The position numbers were made by a program, and so were the translations under genes. DNA of 63,428 nucleotides, the filler included, from Collodictyon triciliatum (lineage: Eukaryota), in NCBI GenBank assembly GCA_043381765.1. It is 3 parts of 3 records of this genome, joined end to end, with 100 filler letters (N's around TTAATTAATTAA, not from the genome) between each part and the next. Parts side by side here need not be neighbours in the genome. Positions count along the whole stretch, not along the records: positions 1 to 19,038 come from JBHJMP010000265.1; positions 19,139 to 49,558 come from JBHJMP010000266.1; positions 49,659 to 63,428 come from JBHJMP010000268.1. One strand, given 5' to 3'. The notes beneath the pieces are model-generated. The model saw only the letters and a list, made by a program, of their open reading frames with translations, searched no databases and was not told the origin of the DNA. Of the stretch, positions 2,650-60,700 are shown piece after piece; position 1 is the first letter of the stretch; each line of letters opens with the position of its first letter.

Positions 2650-3591
2650 CAACATAATTGCTTGGTGCATTTTATCGTGTGTGTGATCGAGTGAGGCAGG
2701 CATCCTGTGAACTGGAGACACACTCGTACGAAACTGCCTGGCGCGATCGTGATTTGCTGAGCAAGAAAGCAGGATGGGCGAGAGATGGGATCGGAATCCA
2801 TCTTGCTATGAATTTCTATTTCTGGAAAACATATTTTGGGGCTTTTGTGTACGCTCACCGCGAGCTGGAGACAAGCACGAACCCCGCAAATCCTTCCAAA
2901 CCACCGCTCTCTCATGCTTAATATCACCAATAGGGAGCTATGGATAGGCACAGACGAGACAAAAGCTGGCAAAGTCTCCCAACAATGCACACTTTGCAGC
3001 AACGTTGATGAATCCATTGAGCACACATTTGTGCAATGTCCCTTCGCTCAAAACCTGCGCGAAACAGCCGGTGAGATTCTTCGGCTGACACTCAAGACGG
3101 CTGCGGCTGTTGGCCCAATCCAGGCGATATTTGGGCCTCTGCAACAGCTGCGTCCAGATGCAAAAACACTCTGGGCAGTGACACGAGGCCATTTGCTATG
3201 AACTATGTGGATAGCACGCACAGTCTCACGCAAAGCAAGACTCAACAACCAGCCACCCATTCCTGATAACACGCTGAATGACATCATACAAATCTCTTTT
3301 CTCAACAGCTTTCTTCACCACCTGCACGTTCTCTACTACTCAGACCATGTGAGAAGAGACATGTGGAAAGAGGCTGAGAAAGAGATTCAACCTCGCCTTG
3401 TATCTCTCATGCAAGCACAAGACTCGGACTACAGGCCAAAGCGCAGGATGCAATTCCTGATTACCAACTACTTCTCTGCCGCAAAGTCACCAAGTAGCGT
3501 CCATGCAAACGATGGCTAGCGAACCAAAGCCAACATCTCCACCATCCTGCACAAAATTGAAAGGAAGAATACTAAAATAAAATAAAAAAAA
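2650..3591 (+). mobile_element. 5'-truncated, decayed non-LTR retrotransposon (L1/Tx1-like ORF2 C-terminus, 3' UTR and A-rich tail)
   Basis: CCHC zinc knuckle CTLC...ESIEHTFVQC and downstream L*TMWIAR (TGA at 3199-3201 where Trp is typical). Frameshift near 2840, stop at 3519, short 3' UTR ending GCACAAAATTGAAAGGAAGAATA, then an A-rich tail. The 5' boundary is approximate. Confidence 0.8.
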
Positions 3592-3783
3592 CCGAATCAA
3601 ATTGTTTACACATTCTGCCTTGAAGGTATGAAGAGGGTGTGTTAGTATCTGTTTATGACACTATAATTATTCACCTGGGAAAGTTTGGTGTGATGCAACC
3701 GAGGATAGTCGGATCATTTATAACAGAAATAAAAACGATATCGATGATTGCATTTCTCATGACGACGACAACCATTCAGCTCT

Positions 3784-6546
3784 TCACTCAAAAAGTGAGA
3801 CAGTAGCCTCGCTGAGCGGCATTCTAACCGCACGTCGCTCAAAAGAAAAGCAGCATGTTGGGTTTTTCATGAAGCCCCATACTCTCCTCGAGGAAAATAT
3901 TGAGAAGGTGATGGATATGAAAAGAGACAGCATTCGATTATCTATGTTGATAATGGCAAGGGGGATGACCGTGGTGTGAACTGCGTTGGGAAATACCTGA
4001 AAAAGAAGGATGCATGAGAGGGAAAAGAGAAACAGAAATAAAGGCCCCACCATCATCGGCCATGGATATATTCTCAGCAGCGCTTTTGTTTTGTTCCACC
4101 ATGCAGAAAAGTTATTGAAAGGACTTTCATGAACAACGTCTCTAATATCGCAAATATATGTGCCTAAAATATCTTCGGGCAGTAAGTTTCCGTCCGTTCC
4201 ATCACTTTTGAATCTCACTGCCAACAGCTTTGCCAGAAATAAAAGATCTTTCAAGTGCCCATCTATTTGGTTATCTGATTTCAAATTCCCCAACAAACTG
4301 GTTAGATTCATCTTCAGTGTTTTTACGGGAAATTGGTATGCGTCTAAAAAAATGATTGATAAGGCGCCCATGACTATATACAAGGACCGTAAGATCGATA
4401 CATAGGAAAAGTCCTTGTAGAAAGTAGGTATGATTGCACCGAATATGATCGAGTTAGCAGAAAGAAAGAAAGTGTCGAATGTCCGAAGATTTAAATAAAC
4501 GGCTTCTTTTGAAAACGACATGAAGATGAGCACATTAGCAACCAAACCGAGGGTAACGCACACAACTTCAAGATCTAAAGGGATCATACCCGGTTGAATT
4601 ATATTTGCATATACAACGTAGTTTCCTGAGAAGCCAAATAAAACAGTGAGGTAGATAAGTCTATTGACCAAAATTCGAAAAAAATTGAATTTAACGCCAC
4701 CTGACAAAATATCATGGATGGATTTTTCACAGTTTACCACCAATTCATCTTTTATCGGAGTGAATACAATGCCGACTTTTCGATTTTCTTTGTCACCATC
4801 AAATAATAAAACATTCAAATCTATCTCCTTAGCACAGACGTGGGAGGTAATAGAATCAATTTTCTCTACTTCCATAGATTTCTTTGGAGTCTCACAGCTA
4901 CTCAATGCACCTATATTATATTCAGTATGGCTTTGGTCGTCGTCGTTATCTAAATTCCGTTTAGCCTGATATTCATCCACGTCTACTAAGCTCAAATCTT
5001 CATGAAAAAACAAAGACTTATCGTGCTCGATTGAATCTGACACCACGGAGAGATTAGAGGGGTGTATGTTATCACGAGATCCCTCATGGGATACATTCCG
5101 AATTTTCTCCGATAGAGCAGGCCTACATACCGTATCCATATTTTCATGCCTAATTCCGGCACCATACTTGACGTTCTCGTCAAGAAATGGCGGTTTCTTC
5201 TGGATGGTTGAATCCGCAGATTGCATGGATAAATTTAATTTACTCTGATATTCTCGGCTCTTAATGTATAATATTATAGGGATCCATTCCCTTAAGAGTG
5301 GAATCTTGTAAAGACGATGCCTTACTACCAACACTTTCAAAGGGTAATACAATTGCAGAAATATCCTTCTACAAGTAAATGCGATAATGTTGACACAACA
5401 AGTTCGGACCAAAACGTTTGTTGTAAAATAATCTGGTACGTAAGGTAGACCTTTGTCTTTAAATCCAGGTATCAGATTGAATTGAAGGCAAACATAAACG
5501 TAAATGGGATATATTATGCCAAACATTAAATAACCTACTTGAGTGGGTCCTGTGAATCGTGAAACTTCCGTTCGTACCCATATACCAGTTATTCCGTTCC
5601 CTGTGTTAGAATAGTCTACCAAATTCTGATATACTGTGCAAATCTTACCATAAAAATCATTTATTTTCATCCTTATGGGGGCTTTCTCCGGAGCAAGGTG
5701 TATTTTTATCGTTTTTGGTGAGCTGCCTTGCACAATGGAAACGGAATCGGGCAATTCTTTCTCCATTTCCGATGAGTCAAATGGTGAACTTTGATTGACC
5801 TCAGAAGGGGCTATCCGATTTGTAATCCATGGGATATTGTGAAAATTAGGACGCAAAGTATGCCTCACTTTTTTTCCTTTTATATCTGGCAGATGCGAAG
5901 ACGTGTTTCCGATTTTTGTGTGATGCTTTACAACAATTAGTTCGGTCGGCGGGACACTTGGACCAGCGCTGGTATTTGTACTTATATTTACGTTTGGGGA
6001 TTTGTCTCTTTTTTCAAGGGATGCATCATGCACGAACTTTATGTTTTTATCGAAAAAAGAAGGGCTTACTGCCCAACAGTCGAGTAAAAATAAGTTTAGG
6101 TAACTGACCAATAGGAAGACACCGCTGATAATGGCAGCATTGTTCCAATCGAAAGCCAAACCGAACGAAAATATCATCAAGAGAAGGAGAAATACATTAT
6201 ACAAAATCTCAAAGCACTGTAGAGATAAAATAATCAAATCTCTTTGGAGAGACAAAATCGATAGAATGTTATATGTCGCCCCCAGAGTCGAAAGTATCCC
6301 AAATAGATAAGAAACGTAGTAATCTGGGTTAGGAAGTGTGAACATCCAATAAAATATCGTCGTTGCTATGAATAATCCACCAAGCGACCTCACCCTTGGG
6401 TATATACTTCTTATTAATAAATTTTCCAGAGATTTGCTGAGGATTGAACTGGCCAACGTCCTAGAGTAGTCAATTTTGTACAATATGTCCTCATTTGCGT
6501 ACAGAACAAACCGTCTTGAAAAATGCTCCTCGGTCAGGCTAGGCAT
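3784..6546 (-). CDS. Uncharacterised 920-aa polytopic membrane protein with two homologous TM modules
   Basis: Uninterrupted 2.76-kb ORF with several hydrophobic clusters separated by polar loops. The ATG directly follows (TG)n-TAG, so an upstream intron or exon is possible. Confidence 0.8.
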   Translation of the reverse strand: MPSLTEEHFSRRFVLYANEDILYKIDYSRTLASSILSKSLENLLIRSIYPRVRSLGGLFIATTIFYWMFTLPNPDYYVSYLFGILSTLGATYNILSILSLQRDLIILSLQCFEILYNVFLLLLMIFSFGLAFDWNNAAIISGVFLLVSYLNLFLLDCWAVSPSFFDKNIKFVHDASLEKRDKSPNVNISTNTSAGPSVPPTELIVVKHHTKIGNTSSHLPDIKGKKVRHTLRPNFHNIPWITNRIAPSEVNQSSPFDSSEMEKELPDSVSIVQGSSPKTIKIHLAPEKAPIRMKINDFYGKICTVYQNLVDYSNTGNGITGIWVRTEVSRFTGPTQVGYLMFGIIYPIYVYVCLQFNLIPGFKDKGLPYVPDYFTTNVLVRTCCVNIIAFTCRRIFLQLYYPLKVLVVRHRLYKIPLLREWIPIILYIKSREYQSKLNLSMQSADSTIQKKPPFLDENVKYGAGIRHENMDTVCRPALSEKIRNVSHEGSRDNIHPSNLSVVSDSIEHDKSLFFHEDLSLVDVDEYQAKRNLDNDDDQSHTEYNIGALSSCETPKKSMEVEKIDSITSHVCAKEIDLNVLLFDGDKENRKVGIVFTPIKDELVVNCEKSIHDILSGGVKFNFFRILVNRLIYLTVLFGFSGNYVVYANIIQPGMIPLDLEVVCVTLGLVANVLIFMSFSKEAVYLNLRTFDTFFLSANSIIFGAIIPTFYKDFSYVSILRSLYIVMGALSIIFLDAYQFPVKTLKMNLTSLLGNLKSDNQIDGHLKDLLFLAKLLAVRFKSDGTDGNLLPEDILGTYICDIRDVVHESPFNNFSAWWNKTKALLRIYPWPMMVGPLFLFLFSLSCILLFQVFPNAVHTTVIPLAIINIDNRMLSLFISITFSIFSSRRVWGFMKNPTCCFSFERRAVRMPLSEATVSLFE

Positions 6547-6548
6547 CT

Positions 6549-6555
6549 ACACACA

Positions 6556-6642
<87 letters not shown>
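6549..6642. repeat. (CA)n microsatellite
   Basis: Directly visible; a similar (TG)n run lies at 13196-13305. Confidence 0.95.
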
Positions 6643-6647
<5 letters not shown>

Positions 6648-7736
6648 CGAAGAAATGAAAAAGAAAATGTTATGAGCCTTGTCATTCTTTTGTATAGATG
6701 TGTAACACAAGACAAGAGGAATAAACCAATTTCTGTTCAATGAAAGAAAGGCGACTAACATGGACAATCATAAATGTAAAGTAAAATAAAAACAGCAACT
6801 AAATTGCATTGGCACATAAGCAATCGACAGCACAGAAGAAAGGAAAGAAAAAAAAAAGGTATTTGAGCCTCCTAATTAACAAACAATGAAAACAATAACA
6901 GAAAACATCTATGACCTCGGCTGTAAGGAAAGGTCAGTAAATGATGCTCTGCAGGAATATTGCTCGCAGAGGCAAGGCGTAGGCTCAAGGCCATAGTTTC
7001 CAACCTCCCGAGCCAACAACATGAATAGCTCATGAACGGTGAGCAGATTTTACTCTTTGGTTTGATCGCGTGGGTTGAGGAGCAAACCAAACTCACGCCA
7101 CATGCGCGGCAAACTCCATGATTCGAGTCTGAGTTTCCATGAATTTATCCGCAGAGAAAACTTTGAGTATATTACAATATAATAAGTAAATATTTGTATA
7201 TATGTATCATGATAATCAATATTCGTGACATATAGTGAATAATATGTATTATATTGTAATTTCCACGATTATATTATCTCATTCGTTTCGAAACTTCAAA
7301 ATTTCATAACTTCAATTTTCGATTTCTCTTTTAGGGCGGTGGGGATGTCCCGTGATCTCGTTCGGTGGTTGCACCCGAGGACAGCCACGACCCGCGCAGC
7401 ACGCTCGTCCAGAAGCGCACGGCGCAACGCCACACTGCGAAGCCTCCAACACACATCCATAACAAAAACAAACAATCTCAGAGTGCATTGAACCGCATTC
7501 AACGAAAGCAAGCGGAACGCGAAGCCTCCCAAGAAGCTCTCTCCCTACCCTCAGGCCGAAAAAGGGATCGGCCCCTACTTCCACATTTCACAAGCCCCAG
7601 ACAACAACTGCGCCCGCCTCATTCGCAAAGCTCATATTCTACAGACCTTCCGCTGAATCTTCTTCTGGCTACTTAGAAAACTCTCTACTCGTTGGCAATA
7701 GTGTGAAGTCTTGACGCCTCTCGAAACGAGGACCGA

Positions 7737-10135: not shown

Positions 10136-10653
10136 ACCAACTGCACAGTCGCCTCCGACTCGGGGGTTCCGGCGGCTCGAGAGCGGATTTGCTTGGGCTG
10201 CGGGGCTTTCGTGTCTGTACATATTCGCTCCGCTGCCTGGTGCAAAGGCACGNNNNNNNNNNNNNNNNNNNNNNNNNNNNNNNNNNNNNNNNNNNNNNNN
10301 NNNNNNNNNNNNNNNNNNNNNNNNNNNNNNNNNNNNNNNNNNNNNNNNNNNNNNNNNNNNNNNNNNNNNNNNNNNNNNNNNNNNNNNNNNNNNNNNNNNN
10401 NNNNNNNNNNNNNNNNNNNNNNNNNNNNNNNNNNNNNNNNNNNNNNNNNNNNNNNNNNNNNNNNNNNNNNNNNNNNNNNNNNNNNNNNNNNNNNNNNNNN
10501 NNNNNNNNNNNNNNNNNNNNNNNNNNNNNNNNNNNNNNNNNNNNNNNNNNNNNNNNNNNNNNNNNNNNNNNNNNNNNNNNNNNNNNNNNNNNNNNTCAGT
10601 TCATAATACTATTACTATTATATAATTAATTATTATTATGCGTGGAGCGTACC

Positions 10654-13193
10654 GGTCATCGCAGAATCCTTGTTTGTGAACATAAGGAAAATTCGGACAG
10701 CCTCCTCTGCTATAATCCCAGGTTCTCTCGACTGGATGACAAGCAACCAGATTATGGCAAACGTGGCATGGAGAGAAACAAAAAACGAAACGAAACGAAA
10801 CAAAACAAAACAAAACAAAACAGACAGACAAAAAGAAAAAGAAGCAGGTATGTGTAACGAAAAAGAAAAAAAGGAGAAAAAAAACAGAAAAAGAACAGCA
10901 CACAAGAAACTACAATTCAGGGAGACAGGTGTGTAGGAAGATATAAGCCGTAATAAAATGGTTGAGTCTTCACCTCGTAAACGTAACAAGCGTCGATGGC
11001 GCCGTACTTTGTGCACTCTTCCTCAGTCTCTGCCTGCAGTTCCGAATCAACCTCTCCAGGACCAACCATGTTCTGCATTAACGTCCGAGTTCGATAAAGA
11101 TGTCTCGCATTTTCATGAAAAACAATAAAATCACAGACATGAACGAAAAGAGGGGATAAGAGCAGTGAATAGAGCAAGAGATATTTTCACCTTCAGGACG
11201 ATGACCCTGGATGTTGGTCCGCGAATTATCGAGCCGGAGCGCGATACCCCAACTTCCGCTTTGGAAATCAAACTTCGCATCAGAACATTTGGTTTTCATT
11301 TATTTCTTGGGTTGTTATGTATTGTGAAAAAACTTGAATAGCGAACATCACATTTTAATCATTTGCCATCTTCAAACGGTTTTTTTTTTTTCATACCAGC
11401 TTCAAGAGCAGACCCTGTGCCAGGCAGGGATGCATTATCTGGCACAATCATGGCTGCCCGTCCAGGAACTTTTTTGGCCACAAGTGCATTGGTGATGCCT
11501 TGCTCCTGCTTTCCAAGACCTTGGATAATCAAATATTGTAATTATAATAAAGGTTCATAGACCACCAACGATATGAACCATATTGAAGAGACTAAAAATA
11601 AAAATAAAAATAAAAATAAAAATAAAAATAAAAATAAAAATAAAAATAAAAATAAAAATAAAAATAAAAATAAAAATAAAAATAAAAATAAAAAAGTAAA
11701 GAGAGAGAGGTGTATTTCCATATCTGTAACGCACAACACAAATAGCAACAACAATGGTATTTTTTTTCCTTTATTCGATTCAAAGAGCAACAACAATGGT
11801 ATTAATTTAATAGTAAAACCTTGTCCTTCTTTCCAGCCCATTTTCATCATCATTTTTTGAGCGATTGATTCTTTTACAGCAGGTTTGCTACATGTTTCCC
11901 AGATAAGATATTTTGGTGTAGCAAACATTCGCAGGTGGACAGTACAGCGGAAACAAGGATAAAAAAAAAAAAACTTACGAAGCGTTTGATGAATCTTCTA
12001 CAGTAACTTCTTGTTGAGATGAAGTTGACGCATCTTTCCCGGATAGCATAGCACGGCGACGAAATGCCTCGTCCCCAGATAAAGGTTTGCCACTTGGGAA
12101 GATAATTTTTTTTTTATTAATTGAATTCTTTTTAATTTTTTTTTTTTTAAAAAAAACAAACAAACAAAAAACCAACAACATCAACAAACGTATGGGTATG
12201 GTGTAAATATGTAAAGTAAATAAAGCTTGTTAACACCTCTGCGCACTTTTGCTCGATTGACCTTTCATCAGTTCTTCCATGATTTTCCGTTCGATCTCTA
12301 GATTATATATGATACCATCGTCTCTAAAGCCATCTCTTGCACACTTTCTGGAAACATAAAATTGAATGTCGCATAGAATCTCAAAAATGACGCGATGAAA
12401 CCTTGTTTTTGCCTCTCCTGCCTTCTTCGCTCTGCCATCTGTATTTTTTCTTCAACATACTCATCATAATCATTGGGTCGAGCAGGGTCATATATGTCTT
12501 GGATGTCTCTGGTCATGGTCAAAAAGTCTGCGACAACATCAACCTGCGACCGTGACAAAATACCATTAGAAATAAGTTAAATGAAAAACGAAGCGAAGGA
12601 GTCTGAATAAATGAACACACGAATACACGAATACACGAATACACGAATACACGAATAAACGAATAAACGAATAAACGAATAAACGAATAAACGAATAAAT
12701 CCATAAATCCATAAATCCATAGATGGATACGATGATATATAAATAATAAATCAAACTAAGACAATTTAAGGTGACGTATCCACAAATCCATACGAAGTTG
12801 CTGAAAAGATAATACGGAATATAAGGTAAAAGAATAAAAGGACAACAGTGCCTCTTCGTCGCTGGACCCATCTACTCCTTCGTCGGAACGGTTAAACCCA
12901 TCACGCACAACATCGTCCTCCTCGTGAATAACTCTGACAGTTGATTCTTGTGCGCCATCCTCGGCAGAAACTGCTGGCTTTCGAGATACGGCAGATGGGA
13001 CAGCGCGAAGAACTGAAGCAGCAACCGAGTTGCTTGGCGCCGGCGTCACGGACTTCTTAAGAAGGGCGACCGGAACAAACTTTGTGGCGGCAGCAGGACG
13101 ACTCTGGGAAGCTGACAAGGACAACATCTTAATCATAAAGCCCTTTCACCAATACGCATATAGACATATGAAAGATAATCATTAGGAAAGATA

Positions 13194-13254
<61 letters not shown>

Positions 13255-13255
13255 N

Positions 13256-13307
<52 letters not shown>

Positions 13308-20505: not shown

Positions 20506-23102
20506 CTAGTTACTCCAATTTTTATAGCAATTTGGTCATTCTCCTGTTTGACTTTCTTTATCACTCGATTATCCTAATAGAGACAGCAGAGCAAACCGCT
20601 CAAGACTCAACCTCTTTGTTAAAATCGGCTATCGTTCGCATCGGAGATCAAAATGAGGTTTCCTTGGAAGACAGTGTCGAGCAACTTGTCGGTCTTGTTT
20701 TTGAGGAGGCACCAGAAAAACACCTCATTATTATCGATTGCATTCTAGATTCGTTAGTCTTACTTATTATTGTTATTTCTAATGCCATTATCATCATTGT
20801 TAATATTATTATTAAATCCTCCAATACACAATACCGTATATTTCTCGTTTATTTTTTAATTTTTATTCTAAACCATACACCCATGAAAGCGTTGAAATGC
20901 TACCACTGAAAACCCACATTTATGGAACCGTCGTTGGACTTCTGAATGTCAAGAGCTTTGAGCTTACTGGTCTTGTCTTGAAAAGTTTTTATGACAGGCT
21001 CCAATCTGCTTTAGAGGGGAGAGATACTGTTCGTTCCAAATTATTGGTATTTTTTTATTATTACATTATCAATACCTTCGTGGGGATAGTCTTTTTCTTG
21101 AATAATGAAAATATGACGAAGGGCTTAAAATGAAATGCAACTCGACATAAGACTATTCTTTTGCAATTTAACTGAAAACTCTTCTTTTTTTCTTTTGCCT
21201 ACAACGACCAAACATTAATTACAACACTCCCAGATCCGTTTTATTTCCGAACTTGTCAACAACTTTGTCGTACTCCCGAAAACGTTCTTTGATTTTTTAT
21301 CCCAATTCGTAAACGCGGCATTGGGGGGAGTTGACGAGAGCCTACTCTCTCCAGATCTTGTCACGAAGAAAGATGCTTATGCTCGTGCGGACTTTTTGAT
21401 TCACCTCGTCTTATTTGCCCTTCCATATGTAAGACCTGCTCTGTTATAATAACTAACAGCAATTAGTCATATACATTTCCCTCCTCCAGTCACCATTCTA
21501 AACGAGTCAATTATTTATCTGATTCTAGGTTGGATATCAGTTCAGCAGAAGGGACTATCAAAACCTCGATACACTAATGACAATGATAGACTCTTATTTT
21601 TCATCGCGTCCAGCCAGGTTAACAGAGATAATGTCTCCATTCTTCTTATCTGAAGAGGCAAGTTTTATCCTCCGATCAATTTTTAACGATTGTCCCAGTC
21701 GATAGAGGCCGGTTATAGTTGTGTTTTTTTTTTAAAAAAAAAAAGTTCGAAAGATACTGATATATTCCACCCATTACCTTTTAATATGCAGCCGTTGGAT
21801 CGATTATCCCACTTATTTAACTCCGTCAAGAAATGCCAAGAAAACGGTTGGGAGGTCTGTTCGTCAATAGATTTAGTACTTGGACAATTTGTTCCCTACT
21901 TTTCATTGTTGAGTCCATAACGGGCCCTATCAAAAAAAAAATCCCGACGTTGAGATAATCGAAATCTAAAATGCAATAGATTATGTCAGTTTCTCAACTC
22001 TACAAAAGATTTGGTGAAAAACTATCGTCTTCCTTACAGCATGAGTTGCCCTTATTTCGCCTCCCTGGAGAAGTATCTAACTATACATATGAAAAAATGA
22101 AAAGCTAAATTGCTTACAAAATCACATCTTGAATGGTTATCTTAATCTCTCGACCCAAGTTCAAACAACATTTGACGCGAGGGTCTAATTTTGAATATAA
22201 TCAATTGCAACCTATTTAGTCTCCACTTTTTAAGAGTGCCCTGCAAGTGTTCAAAATATTCGATGATGCCAAAGATGCGGTTTGTGCCTGATTTGAAAAA
22301 TGACTGTTGGACACAATCGTATATATCAGAGTGCCCAAACAAATTAAGCCAATTATGAATAGTTCTATTACAGGGGTTATGGCCAATGTCATGGCTCTAG
22401 GTGTCATAACCTTCACCATCTTGCACAAACTGATAGGAAGAATAAAAGAAAATGACATGACATTAGGTATATCACCCTATTGATCGAATTCTTCTTGAGG
22501 ACCAATTATTGGATACTATCTATTTCTTCAATGTATCGCGTAAGGAATGTGTGAAGCAAATCATGTCAATCGAAGTTCCTTATTCTTTCGAAGAAATTTT
22601 AATTGAGGTATATTCCTTTCATATGAATAAAATCTCAAATTTAAGATTAAGCCAACAAACAGCTTCTAATTTCACACTCACACTTTAATCAGACGATTCT
22701 GGGTCAATTGTTATTCCTACCCAACCCGGAATTCAAAATTTTATACTACCACGTTCTCCTCGGCGACTTGTGCCAACAGAATCAGTCACTTTATGGAGTT
22801 GTATCCATTGAAATATATATACTTATTGATACTCATCGATACTCATTTGCAGCCACCAATACATATGTTTATTGTTTGTTTATTCTTTCTTTCAATATAT
22901 ACATATGTTGTTAATTTAAAAGAGGGGGAAATCATGCTGTTATATCTTTCACCTACAAAGATTTACAAAGCTGTGACGACTCTATTCGAAAGACTAGGTC
23001 ATATGGACATTGAATGTATTGACAGGCTGGCTGATTTCTTCGGGTATCATCTATCAAATTCTGGATACAGATGGGATTGGCACCTCTAGTAAGTTCTATT
23101 TC

Positions 23103-23174
<72 letters not shown>

Positions 23175-25556
23175 TCTTCCTTTCAATTTTGTGCAGTAAG
23201 TTCTATTTCGTTATTTTAACTTATAACATAAAATGGGCGCACCCTTTTCTGGGCTTGAAATGGCTATCGATGTTGTGATTAGCAAATTAATGTTATATTT
23301 TTTTCCTTTTTTCGACTCAAAGAAATTAATGTTATATATTATGTTTGTCTCTCCTTAATAAATTATTCCAATTCATAGCACCAACTATGTTACCCAGCCG
23401 AACACCTTCCAGCACTACTTCATTCGGGAAAGCCTTGGTGCTCTACACTATCTACTTATCAGATCTAATTATAAAACTCTTAAATAAAAATGCGTATTCG
23501 CTAACTTTATATTAATACAAGGCGTTTGTGTAAATCTATCCTATCTGGATAGAATAAAACTGGCCATTCCAACAGCTTTTCACCAAGTCATCGAGGCACC
23601 AGCCCCTTTTAATTTCAAATACGAGAGAATTCGTATGCTATTTATCTTTCAAACATTATACCCAATCACCGATAATGTTGAGTTTTCTACTCTTATTATT
23701 TCATTTCCATTAGTTTGCTTTGTATGCCAGTCTAGGCGCATTTAGCATACAATTCCCCTTCCCTTTCGCTTATTTGGGCATACAAAATAATCAAAATCCC
23801 ATAAATACCGAACTGATCAGCATATGTATGATGTTTAGATGATAAGGATTCTAGTCTCTCTCATGAGCTGGTCAACCAAATCATTCACAAGCAAGCTGTT
23901 GATACTGTCGTAACTTGGTACTCAGAAATTTATACATATATAATAAAGGCAATCCATATAACAAATCTACAAAAACAAAACAGTCCGCCCCTTATTGGAT
24001 TTTAACGTAGCCATTTCCTAAACATAATATCTCAAAGTTTTTTTTTTCGCTTTGCTTATGGCTAATTTTCATAGGCTGAGGCGCGAACTAGAGAGTATAG
24101 ATTCTATGCGCCGTGTTGAAATAGTACTGACTGCGTGTTTCTTTTGCGGCAAGAAGAGCTTCAGCCATCTCTCTCATATCCTCGAGAGGTAGGAAGCCCT
24201 ACTATATTGTAACCAAATCGATGACATAACTGCTTCCATTCCACTTATGATTTAATCTGTCTTAATCTTAATTTGAACCAAATAAAGGATTTTTTTTTGT
24301 GTCTTAATCTTACTTTGAATATCACTCATCATTAGATATCAAAACTATTTGTGTGATGTTTCTTCGTCACCAGAGTGCAAGCTTCATGTTCTAAAATGCA
24401 TGCAAGAGTTTTGGGGAGAAGATTGGGTTCACCAGGTACCCACAATACCCGCGCAAAGGGAAACAATTTATAGCTATATTTTTTCCCTTCCTTTTCTTCT
24501 TTCTCTATTTGCCACCATTATATTTATGTAATGTTTGTTTTCGTAGGGTATAGTCATAGACCGACTCATGACATTCAGAATAGTTGACAACATCACTATT
24601 GTTCAGTGGCTATTCTCTGAGGCAAATACAGCGAACTTGGCAAAGTGATATGCTTTTTTTTGTTTTGTTTATGAGTTCATTCAACTTTTATTTTATGGCA
24701 GTCTTTTCGCATAAAGTAACACCTATACATTACCGTCGTCTTGACTAATTTTCTGTCTCCAGATACGAGTTGTGGAAAGCAGTCAACAATATCATCTCGA
24801 AAACACTTGGTCGATTTGACACCGTCTCAAAAGAATACGAGAAAAATTCCAAAATGGGTAAGAAACGGGGTTTATTTGGCCTTCTCTTATTCTTTTTCTT
24901 CTTTTTTTTTTAAGCTTGTGTAGAGGCTTGCGCGACATCCATCAAAATATTATTAACTACTTCGTCTCAATCTTGCAAATCTGAAATAAAAAGTTGAGAG
25001 AGGTGAACGACCACAAAGACTTCCCGAAATAGTCCGTCAAGCTCTCGATATGTCTCGACAAGAATTGAGCGATCTTTTCTCTTGCATCTTTACTGTACGT
25101 AGGAACTCGCCCTTAAACTACCTATACATCTACATGTTTCAACCTGGATCAATTTCACCTGATGTGCTTTTAATAGAATCTCGTTGAGATGCTCCACCGC
25201 ATATCCTCCTGCTTTGGTGAAGGCGAGCCCGAGCCCTTCTATTTCAGTGTTGCATCGAGACACTTCGTCTCCTTGAGTAGAAAGGTAGCACATATCATCC
25301 TGCGGTATCACCACAGAACTCGATGTCAACTACTTCATATTACATATTTATTATACCATCATAAGCTCCTGCCCTTTGATGACCGAGTTGTATGATTGAT
25401 ATACATACCCTAATTGTTCACTCAGAAGACTTTAATCGAAAACAGCACAAGACACCCCTCACCCCAATCCTCCCCGAGATAGAAGCCAAAATTACATCAT
25501 CAGGAACTGTGACCCCACAAGTCTCCGAGCTTCTGAAGAAAATCAAGACTATCTAA
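20181..25556 (+). CDS. NCBP1: Nuclear cap-binding protein subunit 1 (CBP80), many exons
   Basis: LPLKTHIYGTVVGLLN; HPIDRILLEDQ; MDIECIDRLADFFGYHLSNSGYRWDW; NLSYLDRI; GKKSFSHLSHILERY; IDRLMTFRIVD. Confidence 0.93.
23088..23212 (-). mobile_element. Family A micro-insert (LINE 3' tip + about 69-nt A tail) with 18-bp TSD at an NCBP1 splice donor
   Basis: AGTAAGTTCTATTTCGTT at 23088-23105 and 23195-23212. The insert's reverse complement GCACAAAATTGAAAGGAAGAATA(n) equals 3549-3571. Confidence 0.92.
23284..23337 (-). mobile_element. Family B micro-insert with 15-bp TSD (NCBP1 intron)
   Basis: AAATTAATGTTATAT (23284-23298 and 23323-23337) flanks T6-CCTTTTTTCGACTCAAAG, which has 2 mismatches to consensus. 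Confidence 0.85.
24258..24312 (+). mobile_element. Degenerate family B micro-insert with 13-bp TSD (NCBP1 intron)
   Basis: TGTCTTAATCTTA (24258-24270 and 24300-24312) flanks ATTTGAACCAAATAAAGG; the tail is replaced by a T run. Confidence 0.65.
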
Positions 25557-31741: not shown

Positions 31742-34700
31742 ATTTCTTCATTTCTTCATTTCTTCATTTCTTCATTTCTTCATTTTGTTTGTTTGTTTTT
31801 CTTGAATTTATCTTAACCATTGGCTTCCTATTTGTTTTTAAAAAAAAGAAACTCACCCTTTTTTTCATAGAATATTGTCAAGAACTTCTGTCTCTTAAAG
31901 CATTGACGGTGGATAGTGGTCTAGTCAAGATGAACCCCAATGTTCAATATCCTACCCTGATTTCAACAAACATGGACACCTTGGTAAGATGCAACGGGGT
32001 GCTCTCCTTGTAATAATTGTTTCTCTAAAATTTTATATGAAACAGATTTCCAGGAAAATTACTAGACTTGATCCTAAGACACGTGAAATACTACAAGCAG
32101 CCAGGTTTGAATGCTGATTTATGTTTACGTTTCTGCGTATTTCAATACTGTAAGGCTTTCAAATTCTGGCTCACGCATCATTTTTTTATAAACCAAATCT
32201 GAGGTGTTTCTCATCATGTATCCTCATGTGTTGCGTTATGATATTTCTAGCGCGTACGGCCTTGTTTTCCATTTGGAAGATGTATCAAATCTTATAGAAA
32301 CATCTTCTCCTGAGGAAATATCCGAACTTCTCCATCAAACTGCTCTTTTTTCGTTGTTGCATAAAGTTGCTAGGGATGATGTTTTCCGGTTCCAAAATTC
32401 TGTCACTAGAGATTCTATATGTAAGTCTTCATCACTAATTTGCACTATCGTAACATACTTGATTAAAAAATATATTTGGCTTGGATGAATCACATATTTT
32501 AAAAGCCCTGATTTTTATCTGCTAACATGCATTTTCAAAATAGATAACATGATTCCTGATTACGTAAGGAAAAATTACCACGAGAAGGTGGTGTTTCAAT
32601 ACGAGTCCAAAATGAAGAATTCACCCAAAAGAATGCCAGAAAAACTGGGCTATCATTATTCAGCAGGAGGATTTCATGAGAGGGCTGCACGTTTGCACCC
32701 TGAATTACTTCCTTTCATTTGTTTAAATCAATATTTGATTCACTCTTATGCTCTTAAGTTTTGTCCCTCCCTTCCCCATAACGCATAAGTTGCAAAAGAT
32801 ATTATCTTATTATTATCATTTTTACACTATGTAATATGGTAATAGACTACATGGGTATCGCTGCTGAGACTGCCTTTCAGTGGTGTGGGTTTACTGATGC
32901 CATACGGGTATCTAATGCAATTTTTTTTTAAAAAAAAAATAATAATAGTTGATATGTCGCTTAAAAGCCACTTACCTTCACCGCCCTCCTTCTTCCTTCT
33001 ATTTGAAAACAGATAATAAAGGAAAGAAAAGAAAAGGAGGGAAAATCCTGCTCATCATTACTTCGATCATATCAAGTCATATTATACTCTGTTAATACAA
33101 ATAACTGCATTTATCACAGCTCTTTCGTCAGGCCTTTCTATCTCTATCGAAGGTAGATAATCACATACAAGACCACTCACGGTCGAAAAGATGGATTTTT
33201 TTGAACGCAGAGTCACTTTACTTCAACGGGAACTTTGAATCTGCAAAACAGTGAGCAACAATTGGCCCTATATGCTCTATTAAAAAATTATGAGACCGCT
33301 TCAATTATGATAAGTTGTAATACAAATATTATTCTTCCTTTCAATTTGTGCGGAATGATGAGGATGGTAATGTTTGTGGTTTGTAATAGGGAATATATAA
33401 AATACTTGGATGCTGTTGGGTTCCGTACACCATCAACTTCTGGCATTTTCATGCTCAAATCCATCAAAATGCTGATTGGAGATATCTTGGATGTTTACAG
33501 AAATTCTCAACAATCCTCATCCAATCAAGTATCGCCGGTGGATGGCACTTCCTCAAAAATTTCAATTAGAGTTGAATCTCAATCACAACTTGATCATATG
33601 ATGATAATCCAGGGCCCATCAAATAAATTTGTGAACCGAAGATCATTTCTATATGTATCTGAAAAGTCTGAAGAAAGTTCATACGCATCATCAAAGTCCC
33701 TTACTATCAACACTCATTCGTCGATTATCAAGTCATGCATCAAAATTGCAAAAATATACATGCATAATAGAGATATGACAAAATCTCTTTACTACTCACT
33801 AAGAGCTAAGGGATTGTGCGAGTCACAGGATTTAGCAACCGATAAGCTGCAATCAATGGCTTTAATATCTTTGATAACGGATTCCATGAATCAATTTTGG
33901 ATTTCCAGGTTCGTCTCCCAATACTAATGCTTATTCTAATATTAATTTTTAGTTATATGCCCTGTCTGAATTAGTTGGAGAGCCAATATATTCAGTTCCA
34001 CCTTTTTGCTCAAGAATTTAGTGTGATAAACATACCATCATATGTATCACAATCCACAAATAGAATATACAGCCTCAGAACTTTTGATGTTTTGAAATCA
34101 AAGAACTTGTTCGACCTGTAAGCCCACATACTTTTCATATTTCTATGGCACACTTTCAGCCTACCATAATAATTAAATATCTCATTTAACGGTATCTGAA
34201 CGCGTGTAGACTGGATGATAGCAAAGAGATTATATCCACGGTCTGGTATACAACTATATCTCTTTGCTCACATGGGAAGTTTGAAGAATCCTCTGAGCAT
34301 TTGAAACAGGGGATTGAGTTCGCGGAAGCTTCCACAGACTTTGCAAACCAAGTGACCTTTCCTCAATCGTATTTTAAGACAAAAGTATCACATTGAACTC
34401 CTGGTTTATAGGATTATTTATTTTTCCATTTATTCGATTCAAAGAAGATTATTTTTATGGGATTCCTTTTTATTGTTTTTATTGTTTTTATTGTTTTTAT
34501 TGTTTTTATTGTTTTTATTGTTTTTATTGTTTTATTTTTCAATGAGAAAAAACAAAAATGAGATGCTTTTCTCGATATAATGCCCCATGTTAAAATAAAC
34601 CTCGTGATAGAAAAAGTATAGTAATCTACTCATCCATACATACGCCGTTTTAATATTATCTTCACCTTATTGTAGTTCAAGCTGTATACGATTCTTGGAA

Positions 34701-35850
34701 ACTACTACGGTGTCAAGGGCTCCCCAGATGAGTCTTTCTATTTCCTCGACCGGTCCCAGCTTTTGTCACTGGAGCTCGGCGATGTCAAGTATCAGATATG
34801 GTGCACCACCCAGAAAGCATCCATATATTCAAGATTTGGATTTGGGAATTATGAAGAGATTCGGCATAAGTGAGCTGAGATTCGGAGCTTCGAAATTCGA
34901 TCATAATTCGAAGTAATCATATAGTGATATAATCGCATTCAACTTACTCTCTCTTACAATATCGCTAGGCTGCTGTCGTTTTCAAAATACTATTCAAGCT
35001 CTCTGAAAAAGGAAAGAAGGATGGAAGACGACCTATACTTTGTTACCCTGTCGCTGATACTGAATCATCCGGTTTTTTCAAGAAAGGTACATAAGTGACC
35101 ACCACATCTTCATATTTAATGTCACCTTATAGTAGTAATCTTCTCTCTATAGACCGATTGAATGACACAGCAAGTTTTTATCCACATGAATCGAGCAAGA
35201 CACTGAACCACCACAAAATCAGATTCTCGAGTCAGTCTTGTCAGCCGGGAGGATAAAGTCCACATTCGAGTATGCTCCGGTGTCCTTTTCTGTACTGTCT
35301 GTCCTGCGCCATGTCTCGAAGAGTCGAAAGGACCAGGATGTCTTGACTGCCGCAGTTGTGCATTTACTAGAAAAGACAGAACTTGGCAATTCTTTCCCGG
35401 GACTAGCGGATGAGCTTAGTGATGAACTAGGAGACCTTAGTAGACCAGAAAAGGATACCAGGCTTGTGCGGTCTGTATTGGGAGTACTGGAAGCGCATTT
35501 TAAAGGGAGGGGATTCACCTTTCCAAGCATATTTCGGTGCTATGCATACCTTTATCAGATTGAGGGACGAACTCAGAGGGCGGATGAATTTTTTTACAAG
35601 TATTATTTTGTGTATGACAATAGACTAATTTTATTTTATTTTTCTAAACTTTTTTTTTTCCTTTATTCGATTCAAAGATTTTATTTTTCTAAACTAAAAG
35701 GCCAATCACCACTCTGGAGGAGCTTTCTTCAGCTTTGCAATTTTAATTTGGTATTCGACCATGCGTATGCAGAACAGAGGTGCATATAATATCTGTTTTT
35801 CAACCCACAATATATGCTTATCTGCGAAAATCGCTGCTTGGCTCCGATGA
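26773..35850 (+). CDS. Soluble adenylyl cyclase-like (ADCY10/sAC-type) protein: two class III cyclase domains, STAND-like P-loop NTPase, helical C-terminus
   Basis: C1 VLMLIDISGFTKM and VIKIAGDALLVVW; C2 RQFLMDDKG, IGCTSGRVYCGDIG, REYALVGDVVN; Walker A GPSGVGKS near 30600; GMPFAI; LGYHY. Start and last exon are uncertain. Confidence 0.85.
35633..35695 (-). mobile_element. Family B micro-insert with 18-bp TSD
   Basis: ATTTTATTTTTCTAAACT (35633-35650 and 35678-35695) flanks T9-CCTTTATTCGATTCAAAG. Confidence 0.9.
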
Positions 35851-36037: not shown

Positions 36038-36352
36038 GTTTTTGATTTGTTTTTGATTTGTTTTTGATTTATTTTTTATTTGTTTTTGATTTATTTTTGA
36101 TTTATTTTTGATTTATTTTGATTTGTTTTTGATTTGTTTTTGATTTGTTTTTGATTTGTTTTTGATTTGTTTTTGATTTGTTTTTGATTTGTTTTTGATT
36201 TATTTTTGATTTATTTTTGATTTATTTTTCACTTTGAATCGAATAAAGGAAAAAAAAATTTTTTTTTGATTTATTTTTGATTTGTTTTTGATTTGTTTTT
36301 GATTTGTTTTTGATTTGTTTTTGATTTGTTTTTGATTTGTTTTTGATTTGTT
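36038..36352. repeat. 11-bp (TTTTTGATTTG/A)n array interrupted by a family B insert at 36230-36258
   Basis: Directly visible; CACTTTGAATCGAATAAAGG-A9 sits inside the array. Confidence 0.9.
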
Positions 36353-53043: not shown

Positions 53044-54273
53044 CACAGCTATTAATGCTTGAGTTCCAGCCTGTCTCATTGGCATCGCGCGTTCCAATGA
53101 CCTGTGCTGGGAAGTCATCCGTCCACGCGGATCTGCAAGATGGAGGCATCAGCTTCCGAGCTGAAATCTCGACCTAATTTCATGCACTGTTAATAACTTG
53201 CAAGTTAAGGAGATGCGAAGAGGAAGATCTGGAAACGTGATGATAATGATGATGATAATGATACTGATACTGATAATGATACTGATAATGATACTGATAA
53301 TGATACTGATAATGATAATGAAAATGATAATGATAATGAAAATGAAAATGATAATGAAAATGATAATGATACTGATAATGATACTGATAATGATACTGAT
53401 AATGATACTGATAATGAAAATGATAATGAAAATGATGATGATAATGATAATGATAATGATAATGAAAATGATAATGAAAATGATAATGATAATGATAATG
53501 ATAATGAAAATGATAATGATAATGAAAATGATAATGATAATGATAATGAAAATGATAATGATAATGATAATGATAATGAAAATGATAATGAAAATGATAA
53601 TGAAAATGATAATGATACTGATAATGATACTGATAATGATACTGATAATGATACTGATAATGATACTGATAATGATACTGATAATGATAATGATAATGAT
53701 AATGATAATGAAAATGATTTTTTTCCTTTATTCGAATGAAAATGATAATGAAAATGATAATGAAAATGATAATGATAATGAAAATGATAATGATAATGAT
53801 ACTGATAATGATACTGATAATGATACTGATAATGAAAATGATAATGAAAATGATGATGATAATGAAAATGATAATGAAAATGATAATGAAAATGATAATG
53901 AAAATGATAATGAAAATGAAAATGAAAATGAAAATGAAAATGAAAATGATAATGAAAATGATAATGAAAATGATAATGAAAAGGAAAAGGAAAAGGAATA
54001 AAAGTAAAGTAAAAATAAAACAAATAAAAAGAATTTCCAATTAATCATCGAATTATGCCCAGGAGGAAAAAAAAAGGACGAAATTAGAATGAATGGAAAC
54101 AAATGGTAGAAGCGAATAGAAGAGGAAAGAGAATATATATATATATATATGAAAAGTGAGAACACGCAACGGCAGAGCAACCTGCAGCAACTGCATTTGA
54201 TCAGCCCGCTCGTCAGCCATTGCATCGTCCCACTGCAGGACATCGGCCACGCCAGCAGACGGCTCCGGATTCA
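53044..54273 (-). CDS. Putative 5' part of a small or unknown gene truncated near the gap at 52801
   Basis: MNPEPSAGV...QMQLLQ|gt, then a microsatellite intron, then ag|VEISARKLMPP...SSINS|gtgag. Splice sites and phase fit, but I recognise no family. Confidence 0.35.
53238..53998. repeat. Compound (GATAAT/GAAAAT/GATACT)n array interrupted by a truncated family B insert at 53719-53734
   Basis: Directly visible; T6-CCTTTATTCG is embedded in the array. Confidence 0.9.
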
Positions 54274-54716
54274 TCCTTCTTCGCGGCACAGGACGACGGC
54301 ATAAACCAATCGAATTGGCCACGCGCCCATCTCCTGACGAGTGCCGAACAACACGGTACTTTGCCCCTGCTTTGCTTGTCGCCTTCATTTCCCTCCCAGT
54401 ACCTCACTCGCCCTACGAGTCTCACTCAGTTCGGTGGCAACCAATCGCACATAGCATCTCTGTTTCAGAGTCCAACTCCCTTTCAAAACGCCTCCCTTCA
54501 CTTAAAGGAAACCCAGACACTTATCTTGGCTATGCACGATACGACAGACGGGTTTAGAAGCGGTATCTCTTAGTGGCGACAGAGCAAGAGAAGTGAAGAG
54601 AAGATAACAAGCGGGAAGAGCGAGAACGAGAGAAGCAACGAGAAGAAAAGACGGTTTTGTTGTTGGGCATGTGTAAATCGTTGGATGAAAGGAATGATAA
54701 GAATGATGGAGTGTGG

Positions 54717-57700: not shown

Positions 57701-60700
57701 CACGAGTTTGTGGCTCTTCACGAGTTTGTGGTTCTTCATGAGTCTGCGGTTCTTCATGAGTTTGTGGTTGTTCGTGAGTTTGTAGTTCTTCATGAGTCTG
57801 TGGTTCTTCGCGAGTTTGTTGTTCTTCATGAGTCTGCGGTTCTTCTTGAGTTTGTGATTCTTCACGAGTTTGTGGTTCTTCATGAGTTTGTGGTTCTTCA
57901 TGAGTTTGTGGTTCTTCATGAGTTTGTGGTTCTTCATGAGTTTGTGGTTGTTCGTGAGTCTGCAGTTGTTCACGAGTTTGTGGCTCTTCACGAGTTTGTG
58001 GTTCTTCATGAGTCTGCGGTTCTTCATGAGTCCGTGGCTCTTCATGGGTCTGTGATTCTTCATGAGTTTGTGGTTGTTCATGAGTCTGTGGTTCTTCATG
58101 AGTTTGTGTTTGTTCATGAGTCTGCGGTTGTTCATGAGTTTGTGGTTGTTCGTGAGTCTGCGGTTGTTCATGAGTTTGTGGTTCTTCATGAGTTTGTGGT
58201 TGTTCGTGAGTTTGTGGTTCTTCGCGAGTTTGTGGCTCTTCACGAGTTTGTGGCTCTTCGTGAGTCTGCGGTTCTTCAGTAGAAAAATCATCCGAGTATG
58301 TATGGTTACTCGACTCGGGCTCATTTTGAACAAGTGTTGGCTTTTGGCCCTGTAGCTCCATTTGTGTCTGCTCATGTGGTTCTTCGTGAGTTTGTGGCTC
58401 TTTATAGATTTGTGGTTCTACATGAGCTTGTAGTTCTTCGTGGGTATGTGGTTCTTCGTGAGTCTGTGGTTCTTCATGGGTTTGTGGTTCTTCACGAGTT
58501 TGTGGCTCTTCACGAGTTTGTGGCTTAATTGACTCACCATCTTGACCTATCGATTGCTCGGTTACAGGCATATGTTCCTCGGGATTTTGTTGGGTAACAG
58601 CATTTTGTTTTTCGACTGTCTCTTCCTTATTCGAACTTGGGTCTGTGCTTTCACTGAGTTCAAACTCATGTAACCTGCTTTTTTCTTCGTCTACACCAAA
58701 ATTGGGTAGCTCCAGTTCTTCGGGCTCTGTGTTCTTCGTGGCACGGTCCTTTTGGTTGGTCGATGTTGCTTCAGATTGTTCCGTGCTTTCAAAATCATCG
58801 AAATAGCTCTTTCCTTCAGGTACGGCTGTGTCTTCTTGCTCGCCACTTACCTACAGGAGGTTACATAAATTTCAATATAAACAGAGCATTACATAGTGAT
58901 AGCGATGTGACAAAAATATACATAAATAATACAAAAAATGATACATGTGAAAAGGAAATTGATTGATACAAGTATGTGTGATTCTTATGAATAGGTATCA
59001 CTTTTATCTCATCTTCATCTTTCGTTTGTTTTGCTTGGATATCCTGTTCAAGAACTGCGCCTCCAGATTCAATTAACCTATCATCCAGGTCTGGAAGTGG
59101 TTCATTTTGTCCTTGTGTTATTTCTTCTGCTGTCTCTTTTCCCTCGGTGTCTTTGGTGCTTTCTTTTCCAGACGAGTCAGAACTGACCGATTCAAAGTCT
59201 CCTTCATATTTTCCCGACTTTGTATCACCAGATTCTATGTTCCCCGAATCATTTGCTGTGATTTCCTCAACATGTTTTCCATCAACTTTGGAAGATTTGT
59301 GTTGGTCATGGTCTGGAGATTCACTTTTGCTGGACATCTGCTCCTCATCGATGTAATCTCCAGCATATTGGTCATCTAATTCGGATTCAGCCACAATTTC
59401 TCGCCTTATGTCTTCGACTTTGTCCATGTCTAGACGTAACTTTGGATCTGTTAATTTTGATGAGTCTTTCTTGTCAACAAAGGAGTCTGCAAAACGCTCG
59501 TCATGTTCAGGAGACGATTGAGTGGAGTGTGACGATTGGAGTGAACTTTCTTCATGTTCTTCAGACGAGTCTTTTTCGGAATCATCGCTTGATTCTTTCG
59601 TTTGGACAGTGGTCTCGCTCTCCTGCTCATCAGATTCCTCTTCTTCCTCACTTCCATCATCTTCCCCCTCTTCCTCATTATCTTCATCCTCCTCATCCTC
59701 CTCATCCTCCTCATCCTCCTCATCCTCCTCATCCTCCTCATCCTCCTCATCCTCCTCATCCTCCTCATCTGTCTCAGTGCCAGTTTCAGATTCTGTATCG
59801 GCTTCAATTTTGTCTGATTCTACTGGCCTTGATTTCTTTTCAGGCACTGGCGAAGTTTTTGACTCTTCGCTCTGCTGGTCTGATTCTGAATTTCTCTGGT
59901 GACTCTTATCTTGGCTTTCTGGAGTGAGATTCAGTGTTCCACTTTCGTCCTGTGAGAATTTATGCAAAGCTACGGTTAATCCCTATGCGTTATTGATGCC
60001 ATTTTATGCCGTCTGATATTTAAGTAGACATTTTTTTTTATTCTTCCTTTCAACTTTTGTGCAGGACCGAGGGATATTTAAGTAGACATGCATATCAGTT
60101 CACTGTCTTAAGGCAACATATAATCAAAACAAAACAAAACAAATTGAAACAAATTAAAACAAATTAAAACAAATTAAATAAATAAATGAATAAGTCGAGT
60201 GAGCTAACCTGTTCGCTGGTCTTCTCGACAGGCTCATCGCCCCATTTGGGTCGGGTAGGTGCTTGACTGGTCATTGGACGCATTCCGTCAAACTTACCAC
60301 CTGGATGTTCGACACCCAAGTTGCTATTTTCATCATCATAATCCTTGTCATTATCGTCATCTTCTTCGTCCCCGGCTGTTTCTCGGTGATTATCACCTTG
60401 GCTTTCCTGTTTACTCTCCGAAACTTCACTGTTATCTTCTGTTTCAGAATTAGCATCTGCATCGTCTTCGCTATCAGACAATGCAAACTTTGTCAATTCA
60501 TCGCTCAATCCTTTTTTGAGCTTCCTTGGTTTCTTAGACTCTTTCGATGGCTGTGAAGATTTAATTGCTTCTTTCTTTTCACTTTCTGAACTGAGATAGT
60601 CCTCCTCATTGAAGGATTCTGATTTTGCATCTTCTAAGATGACGGTTTATTTGAAAAATTAGGTAAAATTTTCTTTCTTTTTTCTTTCTTTTTCCCTCTT

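What the first reader, a model, noticed from the sequence alone, without database searches (positions are those of the whole stretch)
2650..60089. Family A: two tiny inserts are the extreme 3' tip of the LINE found at 2.65-3.59 kb
Seen: the LINE ends (TCCT)GCACAAAATTGAAAGGAAGAATA plus an A-rich tail at 3545-3591. The same 22-33 nt recurs alone at 23106-23194 and 60032-60072, each with a perfect 17-18 bp TSD. This links the micro-insert phenomenon to an L1/Tx1-like element within one window. Inference: reverse transcription in this genome very often aborts after a few tens of nucleotides, leaving tail-only scars, and family B may be the scar of a second LINE family.
Basis: partly seen in the sequence, partly recalled or inferred. 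Interest (0 to 1): 0.75.

Follow-up and report, generated by a model that had tools for sequence, protein, structure and literature searches.

The report
Tail-only stubs of two LINE families
Two tiny insertions are the last 22 and 33 bases of an L1-type jumping gene, and in this protist about three quarters or more of such insertions stop within 50 bases, an extreme form of a well-known copying failure.

Summary
Largely confirmed. 23106-23194 and 60032-60072 are 3' tips of an L1-clade LINE (family A: ORF1, APE, RT, zf-RVT), each with poly(A) and a perfect 18 or 17 bp TSD. Two corrections: the window's LINE copy starts at 2852, not 2650, and the 60 kb stub comes from subfamily A2. Family B is a sister LINE (RT continuous with its tip; 68% identical to A). 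Genome-wide exact counts: 1076 A tips against 299 copies reaching 52 nt and 292 reaching 124 nt; 1812 B tips against 387 reaching 43 nt. Corrected for detection rate, about 76% of A stop before 52 nt and 82% of B before 43 nt, and survivors mostly run on. Census medians: A 31 nt (broad), B 18 nt (sharp). 5' joins show no microhomology excess, in stubs or longer copies. Best reading: ordinary target-primed reverse transcription with a fragile early phase; short RNA templates and selection against long inserts are not excluded. The scan has already noted the B stubs many times in this genome; new here are family A, the A-B link and the genome-wide counts.

The parts
2852..3519 (+). 5'-truncated family A (subfamily A1) LINE copy: C-terminal part of ORF2 with zf-RVT, one in-frame stop at 3199-3201, ORF2 stop at 3517-3519
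   Evidence: 88-94% identical to 29 other copies over the parts they share
3520..3570 (+). 51-nt 3' UTR of family A; nearly all A stubs lie wholly inside it
3571..3591 (+). A-rich tail of the long copy; no TSD found
2650..2851 (.).
23088..23105 (.). Left TSD (18 bp); contains the GT donor of an intron in a MIF4G-like (cap-binding CBP80-like, name recalled) gene
   Evidence: RNA contig X1 exon piece ends at 23088; PF09088 E 7.6e-10
23106..23194 (-). A1 stub: last 22 nt of LINE A plus about 67 A, antisense in the intron
23195..23212 (.). Right TSD (18 bp), a duplicated splice donor
60015..60031 (.). TSD copy (17 bp)
60032..60072 (-). A2 stub: last 33 nt of subfamily A2 plus A8
60073..60089 (.). 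TSD copy (17 bp)
11762..11785 (-). Family B stub, 18 nt, TSD 18 bp
23299..23322 (-). Diverged family B stub, 18 nt, TSD 15 bp, about 100 bp from the A1 stub
35651..35677 (-). Family B stub, 18 nt, TSD 18 bp
36230..36257 (+). Family B stub of about 20 nt inside a tandem array; TSD not resolved
50026..50075 (+). Family B stub, 43 nt, TSD 15 bp
53719..53742 (-). Possible diverged B stub inside a microsatellite; doubtful, since the TSD could be the repeat itself
22870..22898 (-). Possible old A stub, about 17 nt, TSD 11 bp
33331..33357 (-). Possible old A stub, no TSD resolved

Best explanation
[quoted passage not shown] SHOWN: parents with ORF1 (A), APE, RT and zf-RVT; stubs equal the parents' last bases plus poly(A); TSD mode 16-17 bp; AT-rich target, mostly T|A at the TSD start; lengths form a continuum up to copies that reach ORF1; most copies stop within about 50 nt (A) or 20 nt (B), while those that pass run on; 5' joins carry no more microhomology than blunt joins would. 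FROM ESTABLISHED KNOWLEDGE: the endonuclease nicks the bottom strand, poly(A) anneals, RT extends, and a second nick about 16 bp away gives the TSD. INFERRED: the second nick is made early and the complex is fragile over the first tens of bases, so the short cDNA is usually joined directly to the upstream target end before RT becomes processive. The exit points depend on each family's template, not on total cDNA length. Selection against long inserts probably adds to the excess.
For: Parent anatomy; best PDB hit human L1 ORF2p E 8.5e-45 against R2 1.7e-19; A and B sisters (SH-aLRT 100) in an L1-like group (94) in a quick tree. Counts: controls 0-1. Detection rates in long copies 21/36, 24/36, 26/36 (A) and 26/41, 32/41 (B) give 24% of A tips reaching 52 nt (17-35%), 22% reaching 124 nt (15-31%), and 17.5% of B tips reaching 43 nt (13-23%). 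About 90% (66-123%) of A copies that reach 52 nt also reach 124 nt. Census of 56 distinct of 57 listed A sites and 77 of 78 listed B sites. B body length varies less (SD 1.3) than tail (1.9) or total (2.1), n=24. One locus (L137) holds a re-copied A tip in tandem, as expected from dissociation and re-priming. Precedents: early top-strand nicking and premature second-strand synthesis (PMC7617806, passages); direct joining of L1 in DT40 cells (PMC4245944 section 10); Ku70 and Artemis shorten LINE inserts (PMC2666801, passages).
Against: No experiment or read-level data show when copying stops. No empty site was seen in another sample. The assembly is fragmented (14,576 contigs), so long copies are collapsed or gapped and undercounted; the census in low-numbered contigs overstates shortness (91% of A at 50 nt or less against about 76% genome-wide; 13 of 292 long-window hits lie up to C569 against 100 of 1076 tips). 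Detection rates come from long copies and may not hold for stubs. The B tip pattern also catches a third family (5 of 77 sites). No physical cause of the stop points was found: none of six 3'-end folds beat shuffles (z -0.61 to +0.94). Junction types do not separate stubs from longer truncations.
Confidence: 0.6

Rival explanations
1. Short-template model: RT copies to the end of a pre-cut RNA, a 3' fragment of the LINE transcript left by an endonuclease or by 5'-3' decay up to the ORF2p-protected end. The stubs would be complete copies of tiny RNAs.
For: B breakpoints are sharp: 40 of 77 sites at 16-19 nt by homology; of 38 strict-TSD sites, 13 are compatible with position 18 and 12 with 19. 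Joins are mostly blunt or carry extra bases: 40 blunt, 30 extra, 29 microhomology of 99 classified (108 strict sites, 9 dropped; at least 4 'extra' calls are subfamily variants). Microhomology equals the blunt-join null (13 against 12.2 of 34 in A; 16 against 15.6 of 35 in B). In human data that pattern belongs to full-length L1, whereas nearly 80% of truncated L1 have microhomology (PMC2912911, passages).
Against: Longer truncated copies (89-457 nt) join the same way: 6 blunt, 4 microhomology, 4 extra of the 14 with a perfect TSD, among 91 long tip-bearing copies seen. Direct joining is a known host-dependent route. Family A has no single cut point (13-48 nt). No small-RNA data were available.
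Confidence: 0.2
2. Selection filter: insertion lengths are ordinary at birth, but a gene-dense genome with 80-210 bp introns purges long inserts and keeps tiny ones.
For: The 15 joints listed from RNA contigs skip 82-208 bp. Long copies are about twofold depleted in low-numbered contigs. Two stubs sit in or beside one intron.
Against: Selection on length cannot easily give two sister families different modes in one genome (58 of 77 B at 21 nt or less, against 12 of 56 A). A counts are flat between 52 and 124 nt (299 and 292). The contig bias is also what assembly breaks would give.
Confidence: 0.15
3. Assembly artefact or later deletion: long copies are missing from the assembly, or were eroded to stubs after insertion.
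For: Many long copies run off contig ends or into N gaps; only 135 RVT_1 matches were scored.
Against: Stubs sit directly against their own unique, perfect TSD (65 of 133 census sites), which erosion would not produce. Only 5 of 77 B and 0 of 56 A census tips were flagged as cut by a contig end or gap. The 43-nt and 52-nt probes lie closer to the tip than the breaks seen (88-147 nt).
Confidence: 0.03
4. An independent micro-SINE that shares a LINE tail.
For: Near-fixed 5' end in B.
Against: Bodies are pure LINE 3' UTR with no separate head; lengths grade into coding sequence; subfamily-diagnostic bases (A1, A2) are shared with longer copies. Only 2 of 51 classified B sites carry 18-21 foreign 5' bases.
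Confidence: 0.02

Closest known systems
Human LINE-1 5'-truncated insertions (PMC2912911 passages; PMC7617806 passages)
   Same: Two ORFs, APE + RT + C-terminal zinc finger, poly(A) tail, TSD about 15 bp (here mode 16-17), AT-rich target, most copies 5'-truncated.
   Different: Median length here is 18-31 nt. There is no microhomology excess, against nearly 80% in truncated human L1. The target start is T|AW rather than TT|AAAA. ORF2 is only about 25% identical to its best database hits. That survey left out inserts under 50 bp by design, so the comparison of lengths is incomplete.
Human L1 and zebrafish ZfL2 in chicken DT40 cells (PMC4245944 abstract and section 10; PMC2666801 passages)
   Same: Direct 5' joining with about 15-bp TSDs; host end-joining factors set the degree of truncation.
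   Different: There direct joining goes with mostly full-length inserts (62%); here it goes with extreme truncation.
Tx1-like and plant or fungal L1-clade elements bearing zf-RVT
   Same: Same domain order; nearest named database hits; same supported group in the RT tree.
   Different: A and B form their own long branch with no close relative; no target-sequence specificity was seen; ORF1 has no Pfam match.
Tailless retropseudogenes (as described in PMC2912911 passages)
   Same: Short TSD-flanked retrocopies made by L1 machinery.
   Different: Those are 3'-truncated non-coding RNAs without an A tail; these are poly(A)-bearing 3' ends of the LINE itself.

Membership tests
L1 clade (L1/Tx1 in the wide sense) non-LTR retrotransposon | N-terminal APE endonuclease in ORF2 | tested here: met
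   PF03372 E 1.9e-16 in L182 (A) and 2.9e-12 in L188 (B-type)
L1 clade (L1/Tx1 in the wide sense) non-LTR retrotransposon | RT that groups with L1-clade RTs | tested here: met
   PF00078 E 1e-27; L1 ORF2p best PDB hit; quick tree of 107 rows, SH-aLRT 94 for the group with plant and Anolis elements, midpoint root, no curated clade references
L1 clade (L1/Tx1 in the wide sense) non-LTR retrotransposon | C-terminal cysteine-rich zinc-finger region | tested here: met
   PF13966 in window 2851-3198 and L198
L1 clade (L1/Tx1 in the wide sense) non-LTR retrotransposon | Separate ORF1 upstream of ORF2 | tested here: met
   Open frame of at least 520 aa in L331, shared at about 90% by 5 other copies over 1.5 kb; no Pfam family; B ORF1 not examined
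L1 clade (L1/Tx1 in the wide sense) non-LTR retrotransposon | Poly(A) tail and 7-20 bp TSD | tested here: met
   Perfect TSD of 12 bp or more at 27 of 56 A and 38 of 77 B sites, mode 16-17; tails mostly 4-13. TSDs under 12 bp were excluded by the filter
L1 clade (L1/Tx1 in the wide sense) non-LTR retrotransposon | One intact full-length, active copy | tested here: inconclusive
   Structure read from overlapping gapped copies (L331, L182, L194, L090); no gap-free copy seen
Tx1 subgroup | Phylogenetic placement with curated Tx1 elements; often sequence-specific targets | tested here: inconclusive
   Only an automatically named TX1-like protein was in the tree and it did not group with A and B; targets are varied AT-rich sites
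Human-type 5'-truncated L1 junction | Microhomology at most 5' joins | tested here: not met
   29 of 99 classified sites, not above the blunt-join null
SINE | tRNA, 7SL or 5S-derived head with internal promoter, joined to a LINE tail | tested here: not met
   TSD-bounded bodies are LINE 3' UTR only
Single-ORF (RTE-like) LINE | No ORF1, short 5' UTR before APE | tested here: not met
   The apparent common start was the truncation point of the query copy

The most novel reading that the evidence does not exclude
TPRT in this organism has a distinct abortive first phase with family-specific exit points (or uses small polyadenylated 3' fragments as templates), so that roughly 3,800 of about 4,700 insertions of two LINE families are under about 50 nt. 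That class falls below the size floor of at least one standard survey and may be overlooked in other genomes. The two sister families would be a natural experiment on what fixes the 5' truncation point.
Probability: 0.4. Interest if true: 0.65.

Novelty: new variant of a known kind. Interest (0 to 1): 0.42.

Why it matters
Why LINE insertions are 5'-truncated is still open: premature second-strand synthesis, host end-joining and RT dissociation are all proposed. Thousands of stubs with exact breakpoints from two sister elements in one host let element effects be told from host effects without a reporter assay. Reporter assays and a survey with a 50-bp floor cannot see such products. The stubs also duplicate 16-17 bp of host DNA, including a splice donor here, and some tails run into microsatellites. 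The elements themselves are ordinary L1-clade LINEs and the stubs are probably inert.

Tried and rejected
1) ORF1-less LINE as the cause of poor processivity: suggested, rejected. 2) A stable 3' hairpin as the stop: six folds, none better than shuffles. A weak B hairpin (-4 kcal/mol, z 0) does end at position -18, which is suggestive only; the A hairpins do not match the A breakpoints. 3) Microhomology-driven breakpoints: not above null. 4) Junction type as a discriminator between stubs and longer truncations: no difference. 5) A ruler counted from the primer: body and tail lengths are uncorrelated (rho -0.24, p 0.25, n 24). 6) Poly(A)-only or host-mRNA stubs: a generic scan of the fetched loci gave 46 A, 45 B and 19 other calls against 17 in a reversed control, with one ambiguous tail-only call. 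7) Empty sites in other samples: runs X3 and X12 do not cover the insert; X1 and X2 are probably RNA and differ from the window at a few bases. Small-share metagenome rows were not used as evidence of habitat. 8) Use of the new acceptor or second donor made by the 23 kb stub: none among the 15 of 18 joints shown, but the tool skipped 23091-23185 as a repeat, so this is untested. 9) Identity of 2650-2851: unresolved. 10) Literature: searches listed no paper on a LINE whose insertions are mostly under 50 nt; the library lacks most subscription papers. PMC3956500 (8 passages) and PMC4859970 (2 passages) gave nothing of use. No supplements were read.

Full report
OBSERVATION. The window LINE ends in the 23-mer at 3549-3571, and the same 23-mer stands alone at 23172-23194 on the minus strand (2 matches, 0.01 expected). 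The 23 kb insert (23106-23194) is 22 nt plus a long T run between perfect 18-bp repeats. The 60 kb insert (60032-60072) is 33 nt plus A8 between perfect 17-bp repeats. It differs from the window LINE by an extra G and in its first bases. Those bases are not untemplated: the 30-mer occurs 105 times exactly in the genome (control 0), and longer members run on into the family A 3' UTR and, across an N gap, into ORF2. It is subfamily A2. The long window copy starts at 2852, not 2650: none of 29 other loci matches 2400-2851, and three continue upstream with LINE sequence unlike the window's. zf-RVT is present.

THE PARENT. Family A has an ORF1 of at least 520 aa with no Pfam match and an ORF2 with APE (E 1.9e-16), RT (E 1e-27) and zf-RVT, read from overlapping gapped copies; no gap-free full-length copy was seen. 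The 3' UTR is 51 nt. The best solved relative is human L1 ORF2p (E 8.5e-45; R2 1.7e-19), and database relatives are about 25% identical. Family B is a sister LINE. In L198 an RVT_1 frame, a zf-RVT frame and the B tip follow each other, 67.9% identical to A over 1057 nt. In a quick RT tree of 107 rows A and B are sisters (SH-aLRT 100) inside a group with plant and Anolis elements (94), apart from the insect-type group; the tree has no curated clade references and is midpoint-rooted.

HOW SHORT. Exact genome counts, controls 0-1: A tip of 13 nt plus AAA 1076, A probe starting 52 nt from the tip 299, at 124 nt 292; B tip of 12 nt plus AAA 1812, 18 nt 1195, probe at 43 nt 387. RVT_1 gave 135 matches of 150 scored candidates, LTR elements included. 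With detection rates from 36 A and 41 B long copies, about 1850 A and 2880 B tips are estimated; 24% (17-35) of A reach 52 nt, 22% (15-31) reach 124 nt, and 17.5% (13-23) of B reach 43 nt; uncorrected ratios are 28%, 27% and 21%. Loss is steep over the first tens of bases and then nearly flat. A census of consecutive listed sites (A: 56 distinct of 57 in C1-C259; B: 77 of 78 in C1-C213) gave medians of 31 and 18 nt, with 51 of 56 and 68 of 77 at 50 nt or less after four diverged copies were re-measured, three of them as long. The census overstates shortness, because long copies are about twofold rarer in those contigs. B is sharply peaked (40 of 77 at 16-19 nt, above the 12-nt detection floor); five B-pattern sites belong to a third family. 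A is broad (13-48 nt) with clusters near 22-24, 33-37 and 42-46.

JUNCTIONS. Perfect TSDs of 12 bp or more were found at 65 of 133 census sites, mode 16-17 bp; the base before the TSD was T in 44 of 65 and the first base A in 54 of 65. Among 108 strict sites in all loci, 99 were classified: 40 blunt, 29 with microhomology, 30 with extra bases. Microhomology matched a blunt-join simulation (13 against 12.2 of 34; 16 against 15.6 of 35). Longer truncated copies behave alike (6 blunt, 4 microhomology, 4 extra of 14). Human truncated L1 has microhomology in nearly 80% of cases (PMC2912911, 12 passages seen), but L1 joins directly in chicken DT40 cells (PMC4245944, abstract and section 10). The join type is therefore a host or element trait, not a mark of the stubs.

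MECHANISM. That these are TPRT products of A and B is close to certain (about 0.97). [quoted passage not shown] Different length profiles of two sisters in one host, and a B stop fixed on the template rather than on total length, point to the element's RNA or protein. No stable hairpin explains the stops. Short RNA templates (0.2) and selection (0.15) remain; assembly loss or erosion (0.03) is contradicted by stubs that abut their own TSDs.

LOCAL EFFECT. The 23 kb stub lies antisense just inside an intron of a MIF4G-like gene. Its TSD duplicates the donor. The exon piece of RNA contig X1 ends at 23088, at the left donor; X1 differs from the window at a few bases and may lack the stub. No empty site was seen in DNA runs.

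COMPARISON AND NOVELTY. The elements meet the L1-clade features that could be tested; Tx1 placement is inconclusive; the SINE and single-ORF readings failed. Seven searches listed no paper on a LINE with mostly sub-50-nt insertions, in a library that lacks most subscription papers; PMC2912911 excluded inserts under 50 bp. The scan's own notes describe the 18-nt B stubs in many windows of this genome, while a sequence look-up with the family A end found none. Verdict: real, a new variant of a known kind, interest 0.42.

Noticed in passing
window 2852; L028, L025, L315: Four A copies have their 5' end 712-732 nt from the tip, in a C-rich stretch (4 of 27 uncensored long copies listed): a possible second truncation hotspot. 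A2 stubs often end in a C run too.
   Followed up: no
L089, L131, L193: Further TSD-flanked poly(A) stubs of other families (24-51 nt in L089 and L131, one nested; 16 nt in L193), parents not sought.
   Followed up: no
L211, L216, L225, L295, L299: A third family shares the last 16 nt with B but has a different, pyrimidine-rich upstream part.
   Followed up: partly
L308, L055, L306: Stub tails run directly into microsatellites, in L308 and L055 built from tip plus A tail; stubs may seed some of this genome's many A-rich microsatellites.
   Followed up: no
L137: An A tip copied twice in tandem inside one TSD, then an (AAT)n tail.
   Followed up: no
L200:2600-2660; L337: B inserts nested inside other LINE copies, with perfect TSDs and an inferable empty site.
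   Followed up: partly
L118:2121-2192: A 597-nt B copy begins just downstream of a tRNA-Glu gene; single case, no tRNA targeting tested.
   Followed up: partly
loci: 0 of 20 truncated copies over 500 nt had a perfect TSD of 11 bp or more, against 65 of 133 census sites; age, broken alignments or different target processing could explain it.
   Followed up: no
L188:3646-8145 (-): An uninterrupted 1500-aa frame that looks like an LTR-retrotransposon polyprotein (best RVT_1 match).
   Followed up: no
L192 / L167: A more distant LINE RT, 35% identical to A.
   Followed up: no
window 55047-58850 (-): 1267-aa frame with about 167 copies of an 18-bp (6-aa, EEPQTH-like) repeat.
   Followed up: no
window 3784-6546 (-): 920-aa intronless frame with hydrophobic stretches and no Pfam family above cut-off.
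   Followed up: partly
window, many places: Many pure microsatellites of close to 100 bp with 4-14 bp units; the uniform length may be an assembly effect, as may the 69-T run at 23104.
   Followed up: no
window 23630-23839: RNA contigs X1 and X2 show this joint with a TC..AG skip and two extra bases, so the donor differs from the window's sequence.
   Followed up: no
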